Source: Escherichia phage vB_EcoM_WFH
Sequence record: NC_048194.1
Strand: one strand, 5' to 3'
Length of the DNA stretch: 64,000 bases
The position numbers and the translations under genes were made by a program. Under the pieces are notes generated by a model. The model made no database searches and was not told the DNA's origin. It saw only the letters and a list, made by a program, of their open reading frames with translations. Positions 765-35,284 of this stretch are shown here, piece after piece (positions within the stretch are counted from its first letter, which is position 1; the number at the start of each line of letters is the position of its first letter).

Positions 765-1106
765 TTAATTTCTTTTGAGAGGAATATGACGGTTGCTGTC
801 ATTATTTGGTTTAATAATGAGCATAAAAACGATTAGAAAGATGATGGCTGATATACTTAATTCAATCAGCGCGGCCTGAGATATGGATTGATCTTCATGA
901 TACTGCTTTTGCATTTCTGCTTTCTTCTGAGCGCAAACTTCAGGCGATATATAATCACCTTTTGAGTTGCCATAATAAATCTCGCCATTTTCAGAAATAA
1001 GTCTGCCGCAAATATCCGTATCGGCCTTTGCACTCGACATCATAATAACGGTGCCGATGATAGCAGCAATTGTCCAGATTAGCAGTTGTGATAAAGTATT
1101 GTTCAT
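765..1106 (-). CDS. small membrane protein (two predicted TM segments)
   Basis: Internal ATG of track ORF 765..1313; product MNNTLSQLLIWTIAAIIGTVIMM... with hydrophobic N- and C-terminal stretches; upstream part of track ORF reads as non-coding and holds a stem-loop. Confidence 0.35.
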   Translation of the reverse strand: MNNTLSQLLIWTIAAIIGTVIMMSSAKADTDICGRLISENGEIYYGNSKGDYISPEVCAQKKAEMQKQYHEDQSISQAALIELSISAIIFLIVFMLIIKPNNDSNRHIPLKRN

Positions 1107-1554: not shown

Positions 1555-1747
1555 ATGTACTGCTACTTGTTTCTCTATTTAGCAGGTATCTGCCGCGCAT
1601 TCCACGAAGGCTGAACTCAACCGTCGATGGATTAGATTTTGAAAGCCACATCACTTGACCGTCGAACGGTCCGCCAACGCATGTGTATTTGGCCTTTGGC
1701 TCACTCCTTTTGGGCCTCTTTGCCCGCTCTTTGATTGATAGTCTCAT
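1526..1747 (-). CDS. hypothetical protein (73 aa, basic)
   Basis: Track ORF, overlaps neighbours by few codons as in phage operons. Confidence 0.3.
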   Translation of the reverse strand: MRLSIKERAKRPKRSEPKAKYTCVGGPFDGQVMWLSKSNPSTVEFSLRGMRGRYLLNRETSSSTFVEWKENGK

Positions 1748-1962
1748 CAGTCTTCACCTTGAGATTCAAGACAAGTAAGAACAAGCCACGTCATCGGAAG
1801 AATCAAAACCAGAGAAATAAGTGACCAAATGGACCAACACAAGATGACAGACTTGAATGTATGAACGTCGCCAAACACAGCAGTGAAACAAAATCCCATC
1901 ACGAAAGCAAGCGCGGTGGAGTGGTTGTCAATGGCTTTGATGGCACGGTCGATGAGTTTCAT
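1747..1962 (-). CDS. small membrane protein (holin-like topology, function unproven)
   Basis: 71 aa, two hydrophobic segments (ALAFVMGFCFTAVFG and ILCWSIWSLISLVLILPMTWLVL), short charged C-terminus. Confidence 0.35.
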   Translation of the reverse strand: MKLIDRAIKAIDNHSTALAFVMGFCFTAVFGDVHTFKSVILCWSIWSLISLVLILPMTWLVLTCLESQGED

Positions 1963-3603: not shown

Positions 3604-3843
3604 TTAAAGCATTCCGTGCTGAAGGTCGAGCTTTCTTGCGGCAAACGACCTGGCACGGAATCGCTTACCCGCCCTTACTGCCTGTCGAATTTTCTTTTGC
3701 AAACACTTACGGTCAAAATCGTTGCGGTCGACGGCTTCGAGTAAATCGCGACGCAGTGCACCCAGTGTCGACTTTTCGGAGACTTCAACGCCCAGCGCGG
3801 CTGCAACATCTTTCAAAACATCGAGTTCGGTTAAAGTTCTCAT
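3604..3843 (-). CDS. hypothetical protein with Rho-N/SAP-like N-terminal helix motif
   Basis: 79 aa, MRTLTELDVLKDVAAALGVEV... resembles Rho_N-type helix-extended-helix; basic C-terminus; opposite strand to flanking terL/portal. Confidence 0.4.
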   Translation of the reverse strand: MRTLTELDVLKDVAAALGVEVSEKSTLGALRRDLLEAVDRNDFDRKCLQKKIRQAVRAGKRFRARSFAARKLDLQHGML

Positions 3844-4256
3844 TTGATAATCCCCTTGATGTCTGATTCTGCCATAAAGATTGGAGTGCCGCCGCCAGGA
3901 ACAATCGAGCGCGTGACCTTGTCAAACATATCGTTTTCTTCAACTTGAATACGATAAAATTTATTTTTGGATGAAGATGGGCACAATCCCATAAATTTGC
4001 CGATGCCGCGAACGCATTCATCTTCAAAGTATACTGTTTCACCTTGAATGGAGTCGATGTCGTCTACTGGATAGACCTTGCGACCCAATAGCCACTCATC
4101 CAAAGTCGCCTGCAAGACGTTGCGCGCATCTAAAATCCACGGGTCAATAGTAGCACCTTCATATCGCGCAGCAGTGGCCTTTGCCAGTTCTTCATATTCG
4201 CATACGTTAACGACTTCGCCGTTGTGCAAGACGACAAATACAATTGTTGTGCTCAT
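3840..4256 (-). CDS. hypothetical protein (138 aa)
   Basis: Track ORF with ATG start, overlapping stop of downstream gene (operon pair); no recognised motif. Confidence 0.4.
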   Translation of the reverse strand: MSTTIVFVVLHNGEVVNVCEYEELAKATAARYEGATIDPWILDARNVLQATLDEWLLGRKVYPVDDIDSIQGETVYFEDECVRGIGKFMGLCPSSSKNKFYRIQVEENDMFDKVTRSIVPGGGTPIFMAESDIKGIIK

Positions 4257-30051: not shown

Positions 30052-30696
30052 ATGATTAATGCAAACGTAATATCTAAAGGGACCGGATGCAGCATGGATG
30101 TTGCAGAGAAATGGGTGGACCATTTCAAGCAGGCTTGTGAGCACTACGGAATCAAAAGCAAGAATGCCATCGCGGCATTCCTTGCAAACGTAGGAGTAGA
30201 GACGGGCAGCTTGAAGACCTTTGTGGAAAATCTCAACTACTCTGCTCAAGGTCTTGCCAATACATGGCCTAGTCGTTACAGCGTCAACGGTCGCTCTGGA
30301 AGTGCCCCGAACTCATTGGCCCTGTCGATTGCCCGTAAACATGTGGAAATCGCCAATAATACATATGCAAACCGCATGGGCAACGGTTCAGTAGCATCTG
30401 GCGACGGTTGGAAGTACCGTGGCCGTGGTGCCATTCAGCTGACTGGAAAGGCCAACTATGCGGAATATACGCGTCAATCAGGCTATGATGCATTGAACAA
30501 TCCTGATATTCTGACTGAACCAAAATACATTGCTGACAGCGCGGCATGGTTCTTTAAGAATAGCGGCTGTATTCCTCTTGCGGATGCAGGAAATTTTGAT
30601 TCAACCGTTAAGCGGATTAACGGGGCCGCGCCGAACGCAGCAAACCACGGCGAGTTGCGAAGAAAGCGTTACAAGGATGCATTAGCAGTTATGTAA
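30052..30696 (+). CDS. endolysin, glycoside hydrolase family 19 (chitinase class I-like)
   Basis: 214 aa; motifs ...FLANVGVETG..., ...YRGRGAIQLTGKANY... match GH19 signature regions; no signal peptide. Confidence 0.8.
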   Translation: MINANVISKGTGCSMDVAEKWVDHFKQACEHYGIKSKNAIAAFLANVGVETGSLKTFVENLNYSAQGLANTWPSRYSVNGRSGSAPNSLALSIARKHVEIANNTYANRMGNGSVASGDGWKYRGRGAIQLTGKANYAEYTRQSGYDALNNPDILTEPKYIADSAAWFFKNSGCIPLADAGNFDSTVKRINGAAPNAANHGELRRKRYKDALAVM

Positions 30697-30699
30697 GAA

Positions 30700-30719
30700 A
30701 AAGGCCCATATGGGCCTTT
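30700..30719. terminator. bidirectional intrinsic terminator (perfect 20-bp palindrome AAAGGCCCATATGGGCCTTT)
   Basis: GC-rich stem flanked by A-run upstream and T-run downstream; sits where plus-strand late block and minus-strand block converge. Confidence 0.7.
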
Positions 30720-30721
30720 GT

Positions 30722-30934
30722 TTATTTTACGGCTTCAACTTGGACGGGCGGAGCGGAACTTGTATCAATGTCTGGCAAGTCGAAGTAATACCCCGCCATA
30801 CCAATTGCACCCACAATCGCGGCCCGTGCCACCTTGTTGCTAATTGACTCCCCAATAAGCTTTACCAACAGGGATAAGATTTGAGACGTCAAAGCCTTTT
30901 TCAGCCTTTTGTTTTCTTCCAAATCTTTCTGCAT
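30722..30934 (-). CDS. small single-TM protein (70 aa)
   Basis: ATG at codon 7 of track ORF with RBS gggtgg; hydrophobic segment AAIVGAIGMAGYYF. Confidence 0.3.
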   Translation of the reverse strand: MQKDLEENKRLKKALTSQILSLLVKLIGESISNKVARAAIVGAIGMAGYYFDLPDIDTSSAPPVQVEAVK

Positions 30935-30948
30935 AACTACCACCCATG

Positions 30949-31491
30949 TCAACGCACTTCCTGTGTCTTAACATTACCTGAAGCATCTCTCAAGGGCAGT
31001 GGATAGTAGGCCATTTGGTAGTCTGATACGCCTTCAATGTGATAAAACACGATTACGTCTTTGCTGTTGATGAGCATGTTAACGACATCTGATTTATCTT
31101 CTGGAGTGAGTATTAGTGCGCCGCCTGTCCTGCTGTCTACTGCAACAGGGTATGTCTTGTCGACAAGGCCGCTGTCCAATGTATTATACCTGACAACGAT
31201 TTCAGGGGCATCAACTTTTGCCATTGACATTCCGAACACAAACGACACGACCTGCCGACCGCGATCATTCATTACGCACATCTTTTCTTTGTCAAATCTT
31301 TCTTTTATTACGTCGTATTTATTCCAGCAAAACTCAAATGACTGCCCATTGTTAAAATATCTTGTCAAAACTTTTGCACTTCCATTCGGCGGCGTAAACA
31401 TATTTTCAGCCGATGCAGTCTTGGTGAAGAATATAACTGTCAGCATAGCCATGATGATGATCAAAACAATCTTTAATTTGTTCGCTTTCAT
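30949..31491 (-). CDS. secreted/periplasmic protein with N-terminal signal peptide
   Basis: 180 aa; MKANKLKIVLIIIMAMLTVIFFTKTASA-EN signal-peptide-like N-terminus. Confidence 0.45.
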   Translation of the reverse strand: MKANKLKIVLIIIMAMLTVIFFTKTASAENMFTPPNGSAKVLTRYFNNGQSFEFCWNKYDVIKERFDKEKMCVMNDRGRQVVSFVFGMSMAKVDAPEIVVRYNTLDSGLVDKTYPVAVDSRTGGALILTPEDKSDVVNMLINSKDVIVFYHIEGVSDYQMAYYPLPLRDASGNVKTQEVR

Positions 31492-31666: not shown

Positions 31667-32641
31667 TTAAAAATACTCCATATCGGTAATATCACGGAAG
31701 CACTTATACAAGGCAGAGCGCGGCACGTCAACTATGCCAAAGTTAAAGAATTTATATGTCAAATACTTGTTTCGATAATTCTCGCGATTCTCCCAAAGCA
31801 TTTTTCTCTCTGCCATAGGCATTGAACCAGCGGAGACGCGGAAGGGAATCATTTCACCTTTCTCATCAACATATTTTGGATTGACAACCACAAATGATCC
31901 AAGGTATCCTTTTGCAACTAAGCCTTCAGCCTCTTTCGAACGCTTAGTGCGACCCAACTCATCAATGAATGCTTCGTTGTTATTCTCCATCATCTCAACG
32001 AAGTCTATGATCAGTCCTTCTTCATCGGTCCACGGCTTGTCCTTCCACACATCACGTGACTTTGGCGTCGCGCGGCCATGCTTGTATTTGCCCGTCCAAG
32101 ACTTGCCATACAAGCCTTCATAGCCAAGCTGGTCTGCTTCGATTTGCATCGCCGCGTACTGTTCCATATTTTCGATGTTTCGATATTCGAGAGCGCGAAG
32201 GAATGGGCGTCGACCATGGTTGATGAGGTGCTGATTGACTTCAGCAACTCTAGCGCGATAGTTTGCATAACGCTTTTCAAAAGGCAAATCAGGGTCGCTG
32301 AAGTCATCAAACACCCACCATGTAAAGTTAGTGATTGCATCAGTGTTCATGCATGCAGTATAGGCCTGTTGCATGACGTTCTTGTCATTCGGATTACCGT
32401 CAATTAGCTCTCCATCAAGTCCGTGAATCAATTCACCCAAGAATAGGAACTCTTTTTTGATTTGAATGTTGCGCAGTGCCATGCCGGATGTGCCCATTGG
32501 CAAGTTGTCATACGCCATCGCGCGTATTCCATCGACCTTGAAGGATAATCCGCAAGGCAGCGGCACATCTTCGCCGCGCTCGATGATTTGTTTACGCTGG
32601 CAACCTTTCATTGGTTTTAATGCTTTGATTTCTCCTGCCAT
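31667..32641 (-). CDS. ATP-dependent DNA ligase
   Basis: ATG at 32641 overlapping upstream stop (track start is GTG one codon earlier); nucleotidyltransferase motif I KVDGIR near N-terminus, further DG/ELDGE-type motifs; size as T7-type ligases. Confidence 0.6.
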   Translation of the reverse strand: MAGEIKALKPMKGCQRKQIIERGEDVPLPCGLSFKVDGIRAMAYDNLPMGTSGMALRNIQIKKEFLFLGELIHGLDGELIDGNPNDKNVMQQAYTACMNTDAITNFTWWVFDDFSDPDLPFEKRYANYRARVAEVNQHLINHGRRPFLRALEYRNIENMEQYAAMQIEADQLGYEGLYGKSWTGKYKHGRATPKSRDVWKDKPWTDEEGLIIDFVEMMENNNEAFIDELGRTKRSKEAEGLVAKGYLGSFVVVNPKYVDEKGEMIPFRVSAGSMPMAERKMLWENRENYRNKYLTYKFFNFGIVDVPRSALYKCFRDITDMEYF

Positions 32642-33234
32642 CACTCAAACTCCTTATTCATCACTTGTTCCAGCGCATAGGCATAAGCCTGATCAGTCGA
32701 TTTAATAAACGTTCCGTTGTACATCACACCTTTACGGTCCTTGATGTCTTCATAGGCGGCTTGAGCGCAATCAGACAGTCGAAGTCCATAATCATGCGCT
32801 ACGCCGGAAAGATAATCGACTGCGGCCATGATAGTGACATCAATATCCATGCTTTGATTTTTAGCAATGGCGTCACCAAGCCGTCCGAGAGTCTTCGCCA
32901 AGCGAAGGATAAAGGAATGAGGGTGAGCGCCTTTGTCAGCGCAACCGCCTCCGTTGATGTCTTCGATTTTTGCACCATTTTGCGCGGCAAGAATAGTTAA
33001 CACAACAAGGCAATCACCGATGTCGTCCTTGATTGCGGCTTGCAAATCACAAATGGCCTGCTCTGTATATCCGATTTCAGGGTCAAAGAACACAAGGTCA
33101 TGGAGTTGATCCACGTGGTCGGTCAACTCCCCAAACTCGCTAATAAGCTTCGGGTATTGGTCTTTAAGGCCGCAACCTTTGATGATGTTACGGTCAGAAG
33201 CCCATTGGCGAATGTTTGCATAAATCTGGTTCAT
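32641..33234 (-). CDS. MazG-like nucleoside triphosphate pyrophosphohydrolase
   Basis: 197 aa; EFGELTDH ... DDIGDCLVVLTILAAQNGAKIED pattern matches MazG/HisE-type EExxE...D motifs. Confidence 0.5.
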   Translation of the reverse strand: MNQIYANIRQWASDRNIIKGCGLKDQYPKLISEFGELTDHVDQLHDLVFFDPEIGYTEQAICDLQAAIKDDIGDCLVVLTILAAQNGAKIEDINGGGCADKGAHPHSFILRLAKTLGRLGDAIAKNQSMDIDVTIMAAVDYLSGVAHDYGLRLSDCAQAAYEDIKDRKGVMYNGTFIKSTDQAYAYALEQVMNKEFE

Positions 33235-33749
33235 TTATTTTCCTTTGATGCGTTGAATTGGTCGATTTTAATTTTAGCCTGATTATAAGTATCAATCAAG
33301 CTATTAACTTTCTCTTTTAATCGGTTCGTTTCTGCGGCGAACTGAACAAGAAATCGGACATCCTCTTCTGATAGTCCACAGTTTCCTTCTGGGATAGAGA
33401 GGCGTCCAGTGGTCGCAGAGTAGGGCACACTCCTGAGTAATTCACGGGAACAGCTGAGTTGCTCGCGCAGCTTGATATTCCCAGACTTGTAACGAGCAAT
33501 AGTGTCATCAGCAACCAGTTGCGCTTCCTGGCGACCCTTCTCATATGCCGATGCCGATTCAACCTGTAAAGATGCAATTTGCTCTTCGAGTGCATTTATC
33601 TTGTCCTTACGCTCATTAAGCGATGTCAGATATTGATTGTCCTTGGCCAGTGATGCGTTGGTTTGCTGAAGGTCTTCAACGTATGATCCAGCGGCGAACG
33701 CGCCAACAAGGGCCAGAATCTTCAGTAGCGGTACAATTCTTTCTATCAT
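33231..33749 (-). CDS. i-spanin (Rz-like): N-terminal TM anchor plus coiled coil
   Basis: 172 aa; IVPLLKILALVGAFAAGSYV TM segment then heptad-rich region; contains an embedded out-of-frame lipoprotein ORF. Confidence 0.55.
   Translation of the reverse strand: MIERIVPLLKILALVGAFAAGSYVEDLQQTNASLAKDNQYLTSLNERKDKINALEEQIASLQVESASAYEKGRQEAQLVADDTIARYKSGNIKLREQLSCSRELLRSVPYSATTGRLSIPEGNCGLSEEDVRFLVQFAAETNRLKEKVNSLIDTYNQAKIKIDQFNASKENK
33317..33544 (-). CDS. o-spanin (Rz1-like) lipoprotein embedded in the Rz-like gene in another frame
   Basis: From internal ATG: MRRVARKRNWLLMTLLLVTSLGISSC-ASNSAVPVNYSGVCPTLRPLD...; positive n-region, hydrophobic core, lipobox ISSC, Pro-rich mature part. Confidence 0.5.
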   Translation of the reverse strand: MRRVARKRNWLLMTLLLVTSLGISSCASNSAVPVNYSGVCPTLRPLDASLSQKETVDYQKRMSDFLFSSPQKRTD

Positions 33750-33806
33750 GATGCACCAGATAAATAAAAGGCCGCCAATCGGCAGCCTTGTTGATTTGAT
33801 TGTCGA

Positions 33807-34667
33807 TTAAAACTCTTCTGCGTCGGTCGGAGTTTCATTGACAGGACCAGCGGCACCACTTGCTTCTTCCTGCTTGCTGCGGTCAATGTTAACGTTGCCG
33901 CCAACCACGTCGTTGTGGAATGCTTTGGCGACTTCGTACAGGCCTTTGTCCTGCACCAGACCTTCCAGCTCAAACTTCAGGACGGACCAGGTGTTGCCGT
34001 CTTTGGACTGAGACGCAGTACCCATGCGAACGATGTTCATGAAGGTCGGCGGCGTTTTCAGGCCCTGCGGAGTCTGAACTTTCTTCTGCTGCAGAGCGGT
34101 CATCAGCATGCGAGACGGCTTGATCATGGAAGAAGTCAGAGACAGCATTGCACTACCAAATTCACCAGTTTCTTCGTTCAACAGAATCACGAAGTGGTTA
34201 CGTGTATCTGCGTAGTAAGGTGATTTCTTCTCGTGCACCTTGCCGTTTTCGTCTGGCACAAACACCTTACCGTTGATCTCAACAGCGCGGCCTGCCGCGA
34301 CTTCTGCATCAACGTGCTCTTTGGTGAATTCACCTTTAAAGCCTTTATCGTCGGACTCGCGACCGCCCCAAAGGATGAAGGTGCGTTTGAATGCGCAAGG
34401 GATGATCTGCACGCCCTTCTTGCCGTCATACAATTCACCAGTAACGGTGTTGTACAGCATACCAGCTTTTGCGCCAGGAACGTGTTTTGGATCATCTTCG
34501 TCGACCATCGGAGACATCTTTTGCAGTACGACGATAAAAGGAATGGCATAAGCGTCGGCATCGGCACCTTCAAAACCAGCGCCAAAATCGGTCATATCGA
34601 CAAAATCAGCCATAGCGGACATCTGGGTGTTTTTTGCTGCAACTTCGGTAGTTTCTTTCTTAGACAT
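33807..34667 (-). CDS. single-stranded DNA-binding protein (T7 gp2.5-like)
   Basis: 286 aa; acidic C-terminal tail ending ...ETPTDAEEF (acidic tail with terminal Phe as in gp2.5-type SSBs); position in replication block. Confidence 0.45.
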   Translation of the reverse strand: MSKKETTEVAAKNTQMSAMADFVDMTDFGAGFEGADADAYAIPFIVVLQKMSPMVDEDDPKHVPGAKAGMLYNTVTGELYDGKKGVQIIPCAFKRTFILWGGRESDDKGFKGEFTKEHVDAEVAAGRAVEINGKVFVPDENGKVHEKKSPYYADTRNHFVILLNEETGEFGSAMLSLTSSMIKPSRMLMTALQQKKVQTPQGLKTPPTFMNIVRMGTASQSKDGNTWSVLKFELEGLVQDKGLYEVAKAFHNDVVGGNVNIDRSKQEEASGAAGPVNETPTDAEEF

Positions 34668-34726
34668 TTGGTGTTTTCCTATAGTATCAAGTTTCGTGGC
34701 AACCTGATTTCAAGATAAAGGTTAAA

Positions 34727-35284
34727 TTACTTTTTGCTTTTAGGCAAGGTTATTTTAGCTTCTTTATACTCAAAAACGCTAATATCTTCACTAACTGGAT
34801 TACCCGCTTCCAGCTGTTCTTTAACAAATGACTTCAGTGTAGCAGAATGAACGCCTTGTTTCAACGTGGCTTCAACACCGTCTTCACGCAGCGCGGCAAC
34901 AATCTCTTGCGCTTGCTCGATTTCTTCGCGACCGAACTCAGCCGTGACGCTGGACTTGATCAAGCCGCCGTAACCGTTGTTGACGAGCCAATCGAATACC
35001 TTCAATTCATTTTCTTTCTTGATTGAAGCATTTACTTTTGACTCGACCTTGATTTTGGTCTTGTCTTCAAGCTTGATTTCGGACACGCCAAGCTCATCCA
35101 TGACGCCAGGAAGCAGAACAGTTTTGATTTCACTGATGCGCTGCTTTTGCATATCAGCTTCATCTTCAAGCTCTGTCAAAGCTTCTTGGCGTTCTGCCAA
35201 TTCCGATACTAAGCGCGCAAGGCGCTCTTGAATGCTCTCAGGAGCGACCTGCGGCAAATCATCTTCCCAATTAATATTGCTCAT
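34727..35284 (-). CDS. hypothetical protein (185 aa, acidic, coiled-coil N-region)
   Basis: ATG overlapping upstream stop; no recognised motif. Confidence 0.4.
   Translation of the reverse strand: MSNINWEDDLPQVAPESIQERLARLVSELAERQEALTELEDEADMQKQRISEIKTVLLPGVMDELGVSEIKLEDKTKIKVESKVNASIKKENELKVFDWLVNNGYGGLIKSSVTAEFGREEIEQAQEIVAALREDGVEATLKQGVHSATLKSFVKEQLEAGNPVSEDISVFEYKEAKITLPKSKK

What the first reader, a model, noticed from the sequence alone, without database searches (positions are those of the whole stretch)
33231..33749. Embedded Rz/Rz1-type spanin pair located inside the replication operon
The 172-aa product has an N-terminal TM helix followed by coiled coil (i-spanin features). Entirely inside it, in another frame, is an ORF encoding MRRVARKRNWLLMTLLLVTSLGISSC followed by a Pro-rich 49-aa mature region: a textbook lipoprotein signal with lipobox and o-spanin-like composition. 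The endolysin (GH19) is on the other strand about 2.5 kb away across the convergent terminator, and no canonical holin sits next to either. The lysis functions are therefore split between transcription units of different timing.
Basis: partly seen in the sequence, partly recalled or inferred. Interest (0 to 1): 0.45.

Follow-up and report, generated by a model that had tools for sequence, protein, structure and literature searches.

The report
Known embedded spanin pair in Wifcevirus
This is a real pair of overlapping phage genes (an Rz/Rz1-type spanin) that breaks the host's outer membrane at the end of infection, but it was catalogued in 2018 and is annotated in near-identical phages, so it is ordinary.

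Summary
The window is a Wifcevirus genome, 100% identical over the 2.1-3.0 kb compared to Shigella phage CWP003 and Wifcevirus WFH. The 172-aa ORF (33231-33749, minus strand) and the lipoprotein ORF embedded in its +1 frame (33317-33595 or 33317-33544) are both present as described.

Evidence that it is a two-component spanin:
- The outer protein matches PHROG 1327 "Rz-like spanin" (E=1e-26).
- Its relatives sit in classical holin-endolysin-Rz cassettes in phages PY54 and Mica.
- The model shows the Rz layout: N-terminal membrane helix, long helix, linker, second helix.
- The embedded ORF is kept in all nine homologues examined (23-65% identity). The lipobox Cys, a second Cys-Pro and an FLF motif are invariant.
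- Wobble positions of the outer gene vary less inside the overlap (p=3e-5), as expected for dual coding.

The pair does lie in the replication gene cluster, with a 4-nt overlap onto the MazG-like gene. It is 2.5 kb from the GH19 endolysin, and no holin was found.

Two details fail. The mature o-spanin is not Pro-rich (8%), and "different timing" is untested.

It is already known. Kongari et al. 2018 list the ECML-117 pair (one residue different), and GenBank records for Mansfield and Bas98-101 annotate it.

The parts
33231..33749 (-). i-spanin gene (172 aa): N-terminal membrane helix (about residues 5-23), long periplasmic helix to residue 106, linker 107-127, second helix 128-170. Periplasmic Cys100 and Cys124.
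   Evidence: ORF. Hydropathy. PHROG 1327 Rz-like spanin E=1e-26. tblastn to PY54 (1e-13), LIET2 (6e-12) and Mica (1e-6) Rz genes. AF2 secondary structure. Cys100 is invariant in 9/9 and Cys124 in 8/9.
33317..33595 (-). o-spanin ORF embedded in the +1 frame, long form (92 aa, start ATG 33595). This start is the one used in GenBank for Mansfield and Bas100.
   Evidence: The frame is intact at 91-100% identity in 27 Wifcevirus records. ATG(-42) is kept in five diverged relatives while the overlapping i-spanin codon varies N/Y/H/D.
Kongari 2018 gives the same length (75 aa) for the ECML-117 o-spanin. The signal peptide is 25 aa and the mature lipoprotein 50 aa.
33467..33478 (-). Lipobox I-S-S-C. 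The Cys codon is 33467-33469 (the predicted lipidated Cys), followed by Ala at +2.
   Evidence: The Cys is invariant in 9/9 homologues.
33604..33608 (-). AAGGA Shine-Dalgarno-like motif 8 nt upstream of ATG 33595. It is present in all five Wifcevirus-like sequences. It also lies in the conserved RKD codons of the i-spanin, so its conservation is ambiguous.
   Evidence: Mansfield annotates an RBS at this position.
33758..33789 (-). Terminator-like hairpin (9-bp stem, 6 G-C pairs) plus a T-run, directly upstream of the i-spanin start, between the Pam3_Gp34-like gene and the spanin.
   Evidence: Annotated as a terminator in Mansfield. Present at the same place in four diverged relatives, with no compensatory changes.
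33231..33234 (-). ATGA overlap of the i-spanin stop (TGA) with the MazG-like start (ATG). This suggests co-transcription and translational coupling.
   Evidence: The same 4-nt overlap occurs in L010-L013.
32641..33234 (-). MazG-like pyrophosphatase gene, immediately downstream (context).
   Evidence: PHROG 1992 E=5e-63.
31667..32644 (-). ATP-dependent DNA ligase gene (context).
   Evidence: PHROG 114 E=5e-42. Annotation.
33807..34667 (-). Pam3_Gp34-like gene, immediately upstream (context).
   Evidence: PF23977 E=4e-86.
30052..30696 (+). GH19 endolysin with no N-terminal membrane or SAR segment. It is the last gene of the plus-strand structural cluster.
   Evidence: PF00182 32.8 bits. PHROG 181 endolysin E=2e-69. 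Hydropathy maximum 1.04.
30700..30719 (+). Hairpin at the convergence point between the endolysin and the minus-strand cluster.
   Evidence: Annotated as a terminator on both strands in Mansfield.

Best explanation
The locus encodes a two-component spanin of the embedded (lambda Rz/Rz1) architecture.

How it is expected to work, taken from the lambda model and inferred here rather than shown:
- The 172-aa i-spanin is anchored in the inner membrane by its N-terminal helix. It projects two helical segments joined by a linker into the periplasm.
- The o-spanin is translated from an internal start in the +1 frame. It is exported, lipidated on the lipobox Cys, and sorted to the inner leaflet of the outer membrane.
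- The two proteins join by their C-terminal ends. Homodimers are probably held together by disulfides through the conserved periplasmic cysteines. The complex spans the periplasm through the peptidoglycan mesh.
- The complex stays inert until a holin releases the soluble GH19 endolysin and the wall is degraded. It then collapses and fuses or disrupts the inner and outer membranes, completing lysis.

Because spanins are harmless before wall degradation, they can be made with the replication genes. Here they are co-transcribed with, and translationally coupled to, the MazG-like and ligase genes, away from the endolysin.

Shown: ORFs, topology signals, homology, conservation of both frames, gene order. 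Inferred: lipidation, complex formation, membrane fusion, timing of expression.
For: - PHROG 1327 'Rz-like spanin', E=1e-26 over residues 6-160.
- tblastn finds PY54 ORF63 (1e-13), LIET2 gp065 (6e-12), P744 (2e-8) and Mica gp32 (1e-6).
- PY54 and Mica carry these genes in holin-endolysin-Rz cassettes.
- Mica gp32 is a bona fide PF03245 member at 62 bits.
- A profile of the family aligns to lambda Rz with E=4.7e-5, placing Cys100 on the lambda Cys99 region.
- AF2 gives the membrane helix, helix, linker, helix layout.
- The +1 embedded lipoprotein ORF is present in 9/9 homologues, with invariant lipobox Cys, second Cys-Pro and M(S/R)xFLF.
- The o-spanin alone finds the +1 frame of Rz genes in LIET2, PY54, P840, P744 and Acinetobacter phage Alexa.
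- Wobble variation is suppressed in the overlap (p=3e-5).
- Both frames are intact in 27 Wifcevirus genomes and in four metagenomic relatives with the same synteny.
- Independent prior identification: Kongari et al. 2018, PMC6139136, Tables 3-4 and S1, and GenBank records for Mansfield and Bas100.
- Weak experimental hint: HiBiT-tagging the i-spanin of synthetic vB_Eco4M-7 gave 0 plaques against 332 untagged (PMC11074155).
Against: - The window protein itself gets no Pfam PF03245 hit at E<=0.1.
- The link to lambda Rz is only 68% probability.
- No LipoP or SignalP run was possible, and no spanin structure is in the PDB by sequence.
- There is no functional test in any Wifcevirus. The HiBiT result is confounded, because how and where the tag was inserted was not checked, and an insertion at the 3' end would disturb the ATGA overlap with the MazG-like gene.
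- The o-spanin start is unresolved. From ATG(-42) the signal peptide would be 42 aa, which is unusually long.
- The holin needed for the scheme was not found.
Confidence: 0.93

Rival explanations
1. The 172-aa protein is a membrane-anchored replication organiser (like phi29 p16.7: N-terminal membrane helix plus coiled coil). It would belong functionally to the replication operon, and the embedded ORF would be incidental.
For: - Location among the Pol III alpha, helicase, MazG-like and ligase genes, with translational coupling to the MazG-like gene.
- A weak PHROG 6682 'GP16.7-like replication protein' hit, E=0.055.
Against: - That hit is not significant and covers only the membrane-helix and coiled-coil part.
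- The Rz-like hit is E=1e-26.
- Homologues lie in classical lysis cassettes.
- The embedded lipoprotein is conserved and under constraint.
Confidence: 0.02
2. Only the outer protein is functional, and the embedded lipoprotein-like ORF is a chance open frame. The basic n-region could be a by-product of Glu-rich coiled-coil codons read in the +1 frame.
For: - The -42 to -25 segment shows no wobble suppression (15 of 17 columns variable).
- Its basic composition can arise from GAR codons read in +1 (my reasoning from the sequence).
Against: - From the signal peptide onward the frame is open in 9/9 homologues down to 23% i-spanin identity, with invariant Cys, Cys-Pro and FLF.
- It is independently detectable by tblastn.
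- Wobble variation is suppressed (44/76 against 63/71, p=3e-5).
Confidence: 0.02
3. The pair is a real spanin by descent but is dispensable or vestigial in Wifcevirus, with outer-membrane disruption achieved in another way.
For: - It is separated from the endolysin, and no holin was found.
- Pbunavirus and Myosmarvirus relatives carry a different protein in this slot.
Against: - Both frames are intact and constrained across 27 isolates and four relatives at 52-65% identity.
- Tagging the i-spanin abolished plaque formation in vB_Eco4M-7, although this result is confounded.
Confidence: 0.03

Closest known systems
Escherichia phage ECML-117 embedded i-spanin/o-spanin (Kongari et al. 2018, BMC Bioinformatics 19:326, Tables 3-4 and S1)
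   Same: Same genus and same locus. The i-spanin is 172 aa and differs by one residue (Y110D). The o-spanin is 75 aa, embedded, in the same +1 frame.
   Different: Essentially nothing. In 2018 it was a singleton family. The database now also holds relatives at 52-65% identity.
Escherichia phage Mansfield gp57/gp58, and BASEL phages Bas98-101 'Rz-like spanin' / 'o-spanin' (GenBank MK903282, PQ850605 and others)
   Same: Orthologous genes at the same position, annotated as i-spanin and o-spanin.
   Different: These records start the o-spanin at the upstream ATG (92 aa).
Yersinia phage PY54 ORF63 and Burkholderia phage Mica gp32/gp31, with their embedded o-spanins
   Same: - Homologous i-spanins at 27% identity, with the shared GNxRLR...C motif; the CGLSxxDVxFLV motif with its second Cys is in PY54 only (Mica has G at that Cys).
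- Homologous embedded o-spanins with the same Cys, Cys-Pro and FLF pattern.
   Different: Those sit in classical holin-endolysin-spanin cassettes. Here the pair is in the replication cluster, 2.5 kb from the endolysin and on the other strand.
Lambda Rz/Rz1 (Pfam PF03245 Phage_lysis)
   Same: - Embedded +1 architecture.
- Membrane helix, then helix-linker-helix in the i-spanin.
- Lipoprotein o-spanin with a periplasmic Cys.
- Profile alignment E=4.7e-5.
   Different: - No direct Pfam hit for the window protein.
- The o-spanin is 8% Pro, against about 24% in Rz1.
- It is not adjacent to a holin or endolysin.
T4 PseT.3/PseT.2
   Same: A two-component spanin encoded away from the holin (t) and endolysin (e) genes (Kongari 2018). 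This is the precedent for unlinked spanin genes.
   Different: The T4 genes are separated rather than embedded, and no sequence similarity was detected.
PB1-family unimolecular spanins of Pbunavirus (AWAC lipobox; Kongari 2018)
   Same: Same functional step in the sister genus.
   Different: - A different solution: a single protein of about 132-144 aa.
- No AWAC ORF is present in the corresponding 14-1 locus, and the only AWAC match in the window is an off-frame ORF inside the 25510-28248 gene.
- In Pbunavirus the syntenic slot holds a 201-aa membrane protein (PHROG 1544) instead.

Membership tests
Two-component spanin, embedded architecture (Summer 2007 / Kongari 2018 criteria) | i-spanin: single N-terminal transmembrane helix, with a largely helical or coiled-coil periplasmic domain | tested here: met
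   Hydropathy maximum over residues 1-23. AF2 helices 5-106 and 128-170 with a linker. Kongari Table S3 lists one coiled-coil segment for ECML-117.
Two-component spanin, embedded architecture (Summer 2007 / Kongari 2018 criteria) | o-spanin: signal peptidase II signal with lipobox and Cys, and no Asp at +2 (outer-membrane sorting) | tested here: met
   ISSC lipobox. A PROSITE-style lipoprotein pattern (written from memory) matches the 75-aa form and all 7 homologues tested; P744 was not run. The +2 residue is A, V or K. LipoP and SignalP themselves were not available.
Two-component spanin, embedded architecture (Summer 2007 / Kongari 2018 criteria) | o-spanin gene lies wholly inside the i-spanin gene in the +1 frame | tested here: met
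   nt 155 (or 206) to 433 of 519, frame +1. The same holds in 9/9 homologues.
Two-component spanin, embedded architecture (Summer 2007 / Kongari 2018 criteria) | Periplasmic cysteines available for intermolecular disulfides | tested here: met
   i-spanin Cys100 (9/9) and Cys124 (8/9). The o-spanin second Cys is invariant. Disulfide formation itself was not tested.
Two-component spanin, embedded architecture (Summer 2007 / Kongari 2018 criteria) | Function: required for outer-membrane disruption; complements lambda Rz/Rz1 mutants | not testable with these tools
   The only data are indirect: the HiBiT-tagged i-spanin phage was not recovered (PMC11074155).
Two-component spanin, embedded architecture (Summer 2007 / Kongari 2018 criteria) | Location in a lysis cassette next to holin and endolysin (typical but not defining; T4 is an exception) | tested here: not met
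   The neighbours are the Pam3_Gp34-like, MazG-like and ligase genes. The endolysin is 2535 bp away on the other strand.
Pfam PF03245 Phage_lysis (lambda Rz family) | Score at or above the gathering threshold (25.4 bits) | tested here: not met
   No hit at E<=0.1 for the window protein. Homologue scores are Mica 62.4 bits, LIET2 22.3 and PY54 17.1, with PY54 also matching DUF2514 at 34 bits. hhalign of the family against lambda Rz gives E=4.7e-5 and probability 68%. It is therefore probably a distant relative, not a Pfam member by score.
PHROG 1327 (Rz-like spanin) | Significant profile match over most of the protein | tested here: met
   E=1e-26, 94.7 bits, residues 6-160 against profile positions 9-156 of 158.

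The most novel reading that the evidence does not exclude
Across the PB1-like supergroup, the position between the Pam3_Gp34-like gene and the MazG-like gene could be a conserved, exchangeable 'envelope/lysis slot' inside the replication operon. It always sits upstream of the MazG-like gene and overlaps its start (4 nt in the Wifcevirus-like genomes and 14-1, 8-17 nt in PCSE1 and Hera); a terminator-like hairpin precedes it in the five Wifcevirus-like sequences checked. Wifcevirus fills it with Rz/Rz1. Pbunavirus, Myosmarvirus and Salmonella phage PCSE1 fill it with an uncharacterised 201-aa membrane protein (PHROG 1544: Gly-zipper N-terminus, coiled coil, C-terminal membrane helices). That protein would then be an undescribed lysis or envelope-disruption factor. 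Early pre-loading of spanins from this slot might also contribute to the very short latent period reported for Wifcevirus.
Probability: 0.12. Interest if true: 0.45.

Novelty: already known. Interest (0 to 1): 0.1.

Why it matters
It matters little beyond annotation. The CWP003 record, which matches the 2.1-3.0 kb compared at 100%, annotates only 13 features and the WFH record none, so the spanin pair can be transferred to them.

The comparative data give three small additions:
- A singleton spanin family of 2018 now has diverged members, with clear dual-coding constraint.
- The o-spanin start codon is annotated inconsistently in public records (92 aa against 75 aa).
- The holin of Wifcevirus remains unidentified.

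The unlinked placement of spanin genes is a known phenomenon (T4).

Tried and rejected
- **Pfam and NCBIfam on both products.** No significant family for either. The weak GvpL/GvpF, MreC and PspB hits are coiled-coil noise.
- **PDB sequence search with the family profile.** Nothing relevant; TatA at E=0.018 is membrane-helix plus amphipathic-helix composition.
- **Structure prediction with the 9-sequence alignment.** No fold search was run, because a two-helix model would not discriminate.
- **Holin hunt.** Bas100 annotates none.
- **A PB1-type u-spanin (AWAC lipobox) in the window or in the 14-1 locus.** The 14-1 locus has none, and the single AWAC match in the window is an off-frame ORF inside the 25510-28248 gene. 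The 138-aa ORF at 3840-4256 has no lipobox or hydrophobic segment on reading and was not flagged in the hydropathy scan.
- **The 'U-spanin' label for JJ01 ORF85 (PMC9583000).** Its 14-1 and window counterparts (34727-35284, DUF7307) have no lipobox or membrane helix, so I treat the label as a likely misannotation.
- **Covariation in the upstream hairpin.** None was found; the hairpin is conserved only.
- **Genome announcements and related papers.** Neither the Mansfield nor the MyoSmar paper mentions lysis genes, and the BASEL paper contains no mention of spanins or holins. The 14-1 ONT-cappable-seq paper gives no data on this slot.
Full report
**Identity of the window**

The region 32600-34700 is 100% identical to Shigella phage CWP003 (OL856099) and to Wifcevirus WFH (OZ035737). 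It is 92-98% identical to about 25 other Wifcevirus genomes, including ECML-117, Mansfield, WFC, vB_Eco4M-7 and Bas98-101. These are PB1-like E. coli and Shigella myoviruses.

**Observation**

On the minus strand there is a 172-aa ORF at 33231-33749. Wholly inside it, in the +1 frame, lies an ORF at 33317-33595 (92 aa from the first ATG, 75 aa from ATG 33544).

- The outer protein has its hydropathy maximum over residues 1-23.
- An AlphaFold2 model built on six sequences (mean pLDDT 80) gives one helix from 5 to 106, an unstructured linker 107-127, and a second helix 128-170.
- The inner product carries a basic n-region, a hydrophobic core and the lipobox I-S-S-C, with the Cys codon at 33467-33469.
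- The 75-aa form satisfies a lipoprotein signal pattern that I wrote from memory of the PROSITE rule: Cys at position 26, four K/R in the first seven residues, and Ala rather than Asp at +2.
It holds only four prolines (8%), whereas lambda Rz1, read from NC_001416, has 10 in 41. 'Pro-rich' is therefore not correct.

**Is it more than chance?**

I collected homologues of the outer protein at three distances:
- 27 Wifcevirus records at 96-100% identity;
- four metagenomic contigs at 52-65%;
- phages LIET2, PY54, P744 and Mica at 23-29%.

In all nine distinct sequences examined, the +1 frame holds an ORF with a signal peptide, a lipobox Cys, a second Cys followed by Pro, and a C-terminal M(S/R)xFLF motif.

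Used alone as a tblastn query, the o-spanin recovers the +1 frame of annotated Rz genes in LIET2, Nafs113, PY54, P840, P744 and Acinetobacter phage Alexa. All 27 Wifcevirus records keep the 92-aa frame open at 91-100% identity.

In a codon alignment of the five Wifcevirus-like i-spanins, third positions vary in 63 of 71 columns outside the overlap but in only 44 of 76 inside it (Fisher p=3e-5). Mean pairwise third-position difference is 0.29 in the overlap, against 0.50-0.61 in the non-overlapping parts and 0.53-0.59 in the two flanking genes. That is the expected signature of dual coding, because i-spanin wobble positions are o-spanin second positions.

**What it is**

The outer protein matches PHROG 1327 'Rz-like spanin' at E=1e-26 over nearly its full length.

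Its relatives PY54 ORF63 and Mica gp32 are the last genes of classical holin-endolysin-Rz cassettes. Mica gp32 is a Pfam PF03245 (lambda Rz family) member at 62 bits.

The window protein itself gets no PF03245 hit. A profile of the nine sequences aligns to lambda Rz at E=4.7e-5 with probability 68%, placing the invariant GNxRLR...Cys100 on the lambda AGRRRL...Cys99 segment. I therefore call it a distant relative of lambda Rz and a clear member of the Rz-like spanin class, but not a Pfam family member by score.

No significant evidence supports a replication role. The only hint is a non-significant hit to phi29 p16.7-like proteins (E=0.055), which share the membrane-helix plus coiled-coil composition.

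**How it most likely works**

This follows the lambda model (Young and co-workers, as summarised in PMC6139136) and is inferred here, not shown.

1. The i-spanin sits in the inner membrane, and the lipidated o-spanin in the inner leaflet of the outer membrane.
2. The conserved periplasmic cysteines (Cys100 and Cys124 in the i-spanin, the second Cys in the o-spanin) allow covalent homodimers.
3. The C-terminal ends join to form a bridge threaded through the murein.
4. The bridge is released to fuse or break the two membranes only after the endolysin has removed the wall.

The endolysin here (30052-30696, plus strand, GH19) has no N-terminal hydrophobic segment. A conventional holin is therefore expected. 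None was found with Pfam or PHROGs, and none is annotated in Bas100.

**Genomic context**

The pair is inside the minus-strand replication and nucleotide-metabolism cluster. The gene order is:
- Pol III alpha gene, helicase, DUF7307 gene, Pam3_Gp34-like gene;
- the spanin pair;
- the MazG-like gene and the ATP-dependent ligase gene;
- a 180-aa secreted protein and a 70-aa small protein;
- then the convergent terminator and the endolysin.

The i-spanin stop overlaps the MazG-like start (ATGA, 33231-33234), and the MazG-like gene overlaps the ligase gene in the same way. Co-transcription and translational coupling are therefore likely. This order is kept in the four relatives at 52-65% identity.

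A strong terminator-like hairpin (33768-33789) lies directly upstream of the i-spanin start, separated from the start only by its T-run and the Shine-Dalgarno region. It is annotated as a terminator in Mansfield and is present in all five diverged sequences, though without compensatory changes. The spanin, MazG-like and ligase genes may therefore be expressed by read-through at a reduced level. I found no Wifcevirus transcriptome, and the 14-1 ONT-cappable-seq paper says nothing about this slot.

Unlinked spanin genes are not new. T4 pseT.3/pseT.2 are the textbook case.

**Start codon**

Public records disagree.
- The upstream ATG has an AAGGA motif 8 nt before it. It is conserved in five diverged sequences even though the overlapping i-spanin codon varies through all four NAT codons (N, Y, H, D).
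- The downstream ATG has no Shine-Dalgarno motif and coincides with a conserved Tyr-Glu of the i-spanin, but it gives a signal peptide of normal length.
- The segment between the two starts shows no wobble suppression.

The start is unresolved.

**Comparison with the sister genera**

Pbunavirus 14-1, Serratia phage Hera and Salmonella phage PCSE1 have a different gene at exactly this slot, between the Pam3_Gp34-like and MazG-like genes. It encodes a 201-aa protein of PHROG 1544 (unknown function) with a Gly-rich N-terminus, a coiled coil and C-terminal membrane helices. It is not an Rz homologue and has no embedded lipoprotein. Kongari 2018 assigns Pbunavirus a unimolecular spanin with an AWAC lipobox. 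The corresponding 14-1 locus has no AWAC ORF, and the only AWAC match in the window is an off-frame ORF inside a large plus-strand gene.

**Novelty**

The finding is already known.
- Kongari et al. 2018 (PMC6139136) list ECML-117 among embedded two-component spanins, as a singleton i-spanin family and a singleton o-spanin family. Table S1 gives the 172-aa sequence (one residue different from the window), and Tables S3-S4 a 75-aa embedded o-spanin.
- GenBank annotates the orthologues in Mansfield (i-spanin gp57, o-spanin gp58), in Bas98-101, and in RefSeq ECML-117, WFC and FEC19.
- A 2024 study of synthetic vB_Eco4M-7 lists gp69 as 'lysis system i-spanin'. It obtained no plaques when the protein was HiBiT-tagged, against 332 untagged (PMC11074155). 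This is a weak and confounded hint of essentiality.
- The spanin is unannotated in the CWP003 record only because that record carries 13 features in all.

**Verdict**

The feature is ordinary and already described.

Noticed in passing
window 33758-33789 (-): Strong terminator-like hairpin plus T-run directly upstream of the i-spanin start, inside what otherwise looks like one operon. It is present at the same place in four relatives at 52-65% protein identity, with no compensatory changes. This suggests attenuated read-through into the spanin, MazG-like and ligase genes.
   Followed up: partly
window 33544 and 33595 (-): Two conserved in-frame ATGs for the o-spanin, 25 and 42 codons before the lipobox Cys. 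Public records disagree on which is the start. The upstream one has an AAGGA motif and is kept while the overlapping i-spanin codon varies N/Y/H/D.
   Followed up: partly
L003 3704-4309 (14-1 gp51); L008 4764-5369 (Hera gp67); L005 4467-5075 (PCSE1): In Pbunavirus, Myosmarvirus and Salmonella phage PCSE1, the syntenic slot before the MazG-like gene holds a 201-aa membrane protein (PHROG 1544, unknown function) instead of Rz/Rz1. It has a Gly-zipper-like N-terminus and C-terminal membrane helices. Only sub-threshold Pfam hits were found, including GTA_holin_3TM at E=0.014. It may be a lysis or envelope factor.
   Followed up: partly
window 30722-30934 (-): A 70-aa protein (PHROG 5165, unknown function) with two short hydrophobic or amphipathic helices separated by GESxxxK. 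It is the last gene of the minus-strand cluster and abuts the endolysin across the terminator. It is conserved in Wifcevirus relatives, in 14-1 (gp48, a monocistronic unit in PMC10914365) and in Hera gp73. It is the best positional holin candidate, with no supporting family hit.
   Followed up: partly
window 30949-31491 (-): A 180-aa protein with a typical cleavable signal peptide (…TASA/EN). It has no Pfam or PHROG match and is conserved in the metagenomic relatives. It is presumably periplasmic, and its function is unknown.
   Followed up: partly
window 1747-1962 (-) and 765-1106 (-): Small predicted membrane proteins: one of 71 aa with two membrane helices, and one of 113 aa with an N-terminal signal or membrane helix plus a C-terminal membrane helix. 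Judged from the orthologous Bas100 genes (0106, 0110) and the coordinate offset, they lie in a minus-strand cluster that also contains a second tail-fibre gene. Neither has a significant family match. They are alternative holin candidates.
   Followed up: partly
L010 9065-9520 and L011 9078-9530: Two of the diverged relatives have, at the endolysin position, an unrelated 150-aa protein with no Pfam hit in place of the GH19 enzyme. The spanin pair is unchanged. The endolysin has been exchanged independently of the spanin.
   Followed up: no
window 34727-35284 (-); L003 5351-5971: The DUF7307 / Pam3 gp33-like protein is soluble and acidic, with no lipobox or membrane helix. Its Pbunavirus counterpart is labelled 'U-spanin' in the JJ01 paper (PMC9583000, via PHASTER). 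That label looks like a misannotation.
   Followed up: partly
OL856099.1 (CWP003) and OZ035737.1 (WFH): The two public records identical to the window over the 2.1-3.0 kb compared carry almost no annotation (13 features and none, respectively). The spanin pair is not annotated there, although it is in close relatives.
   Followed up: yes
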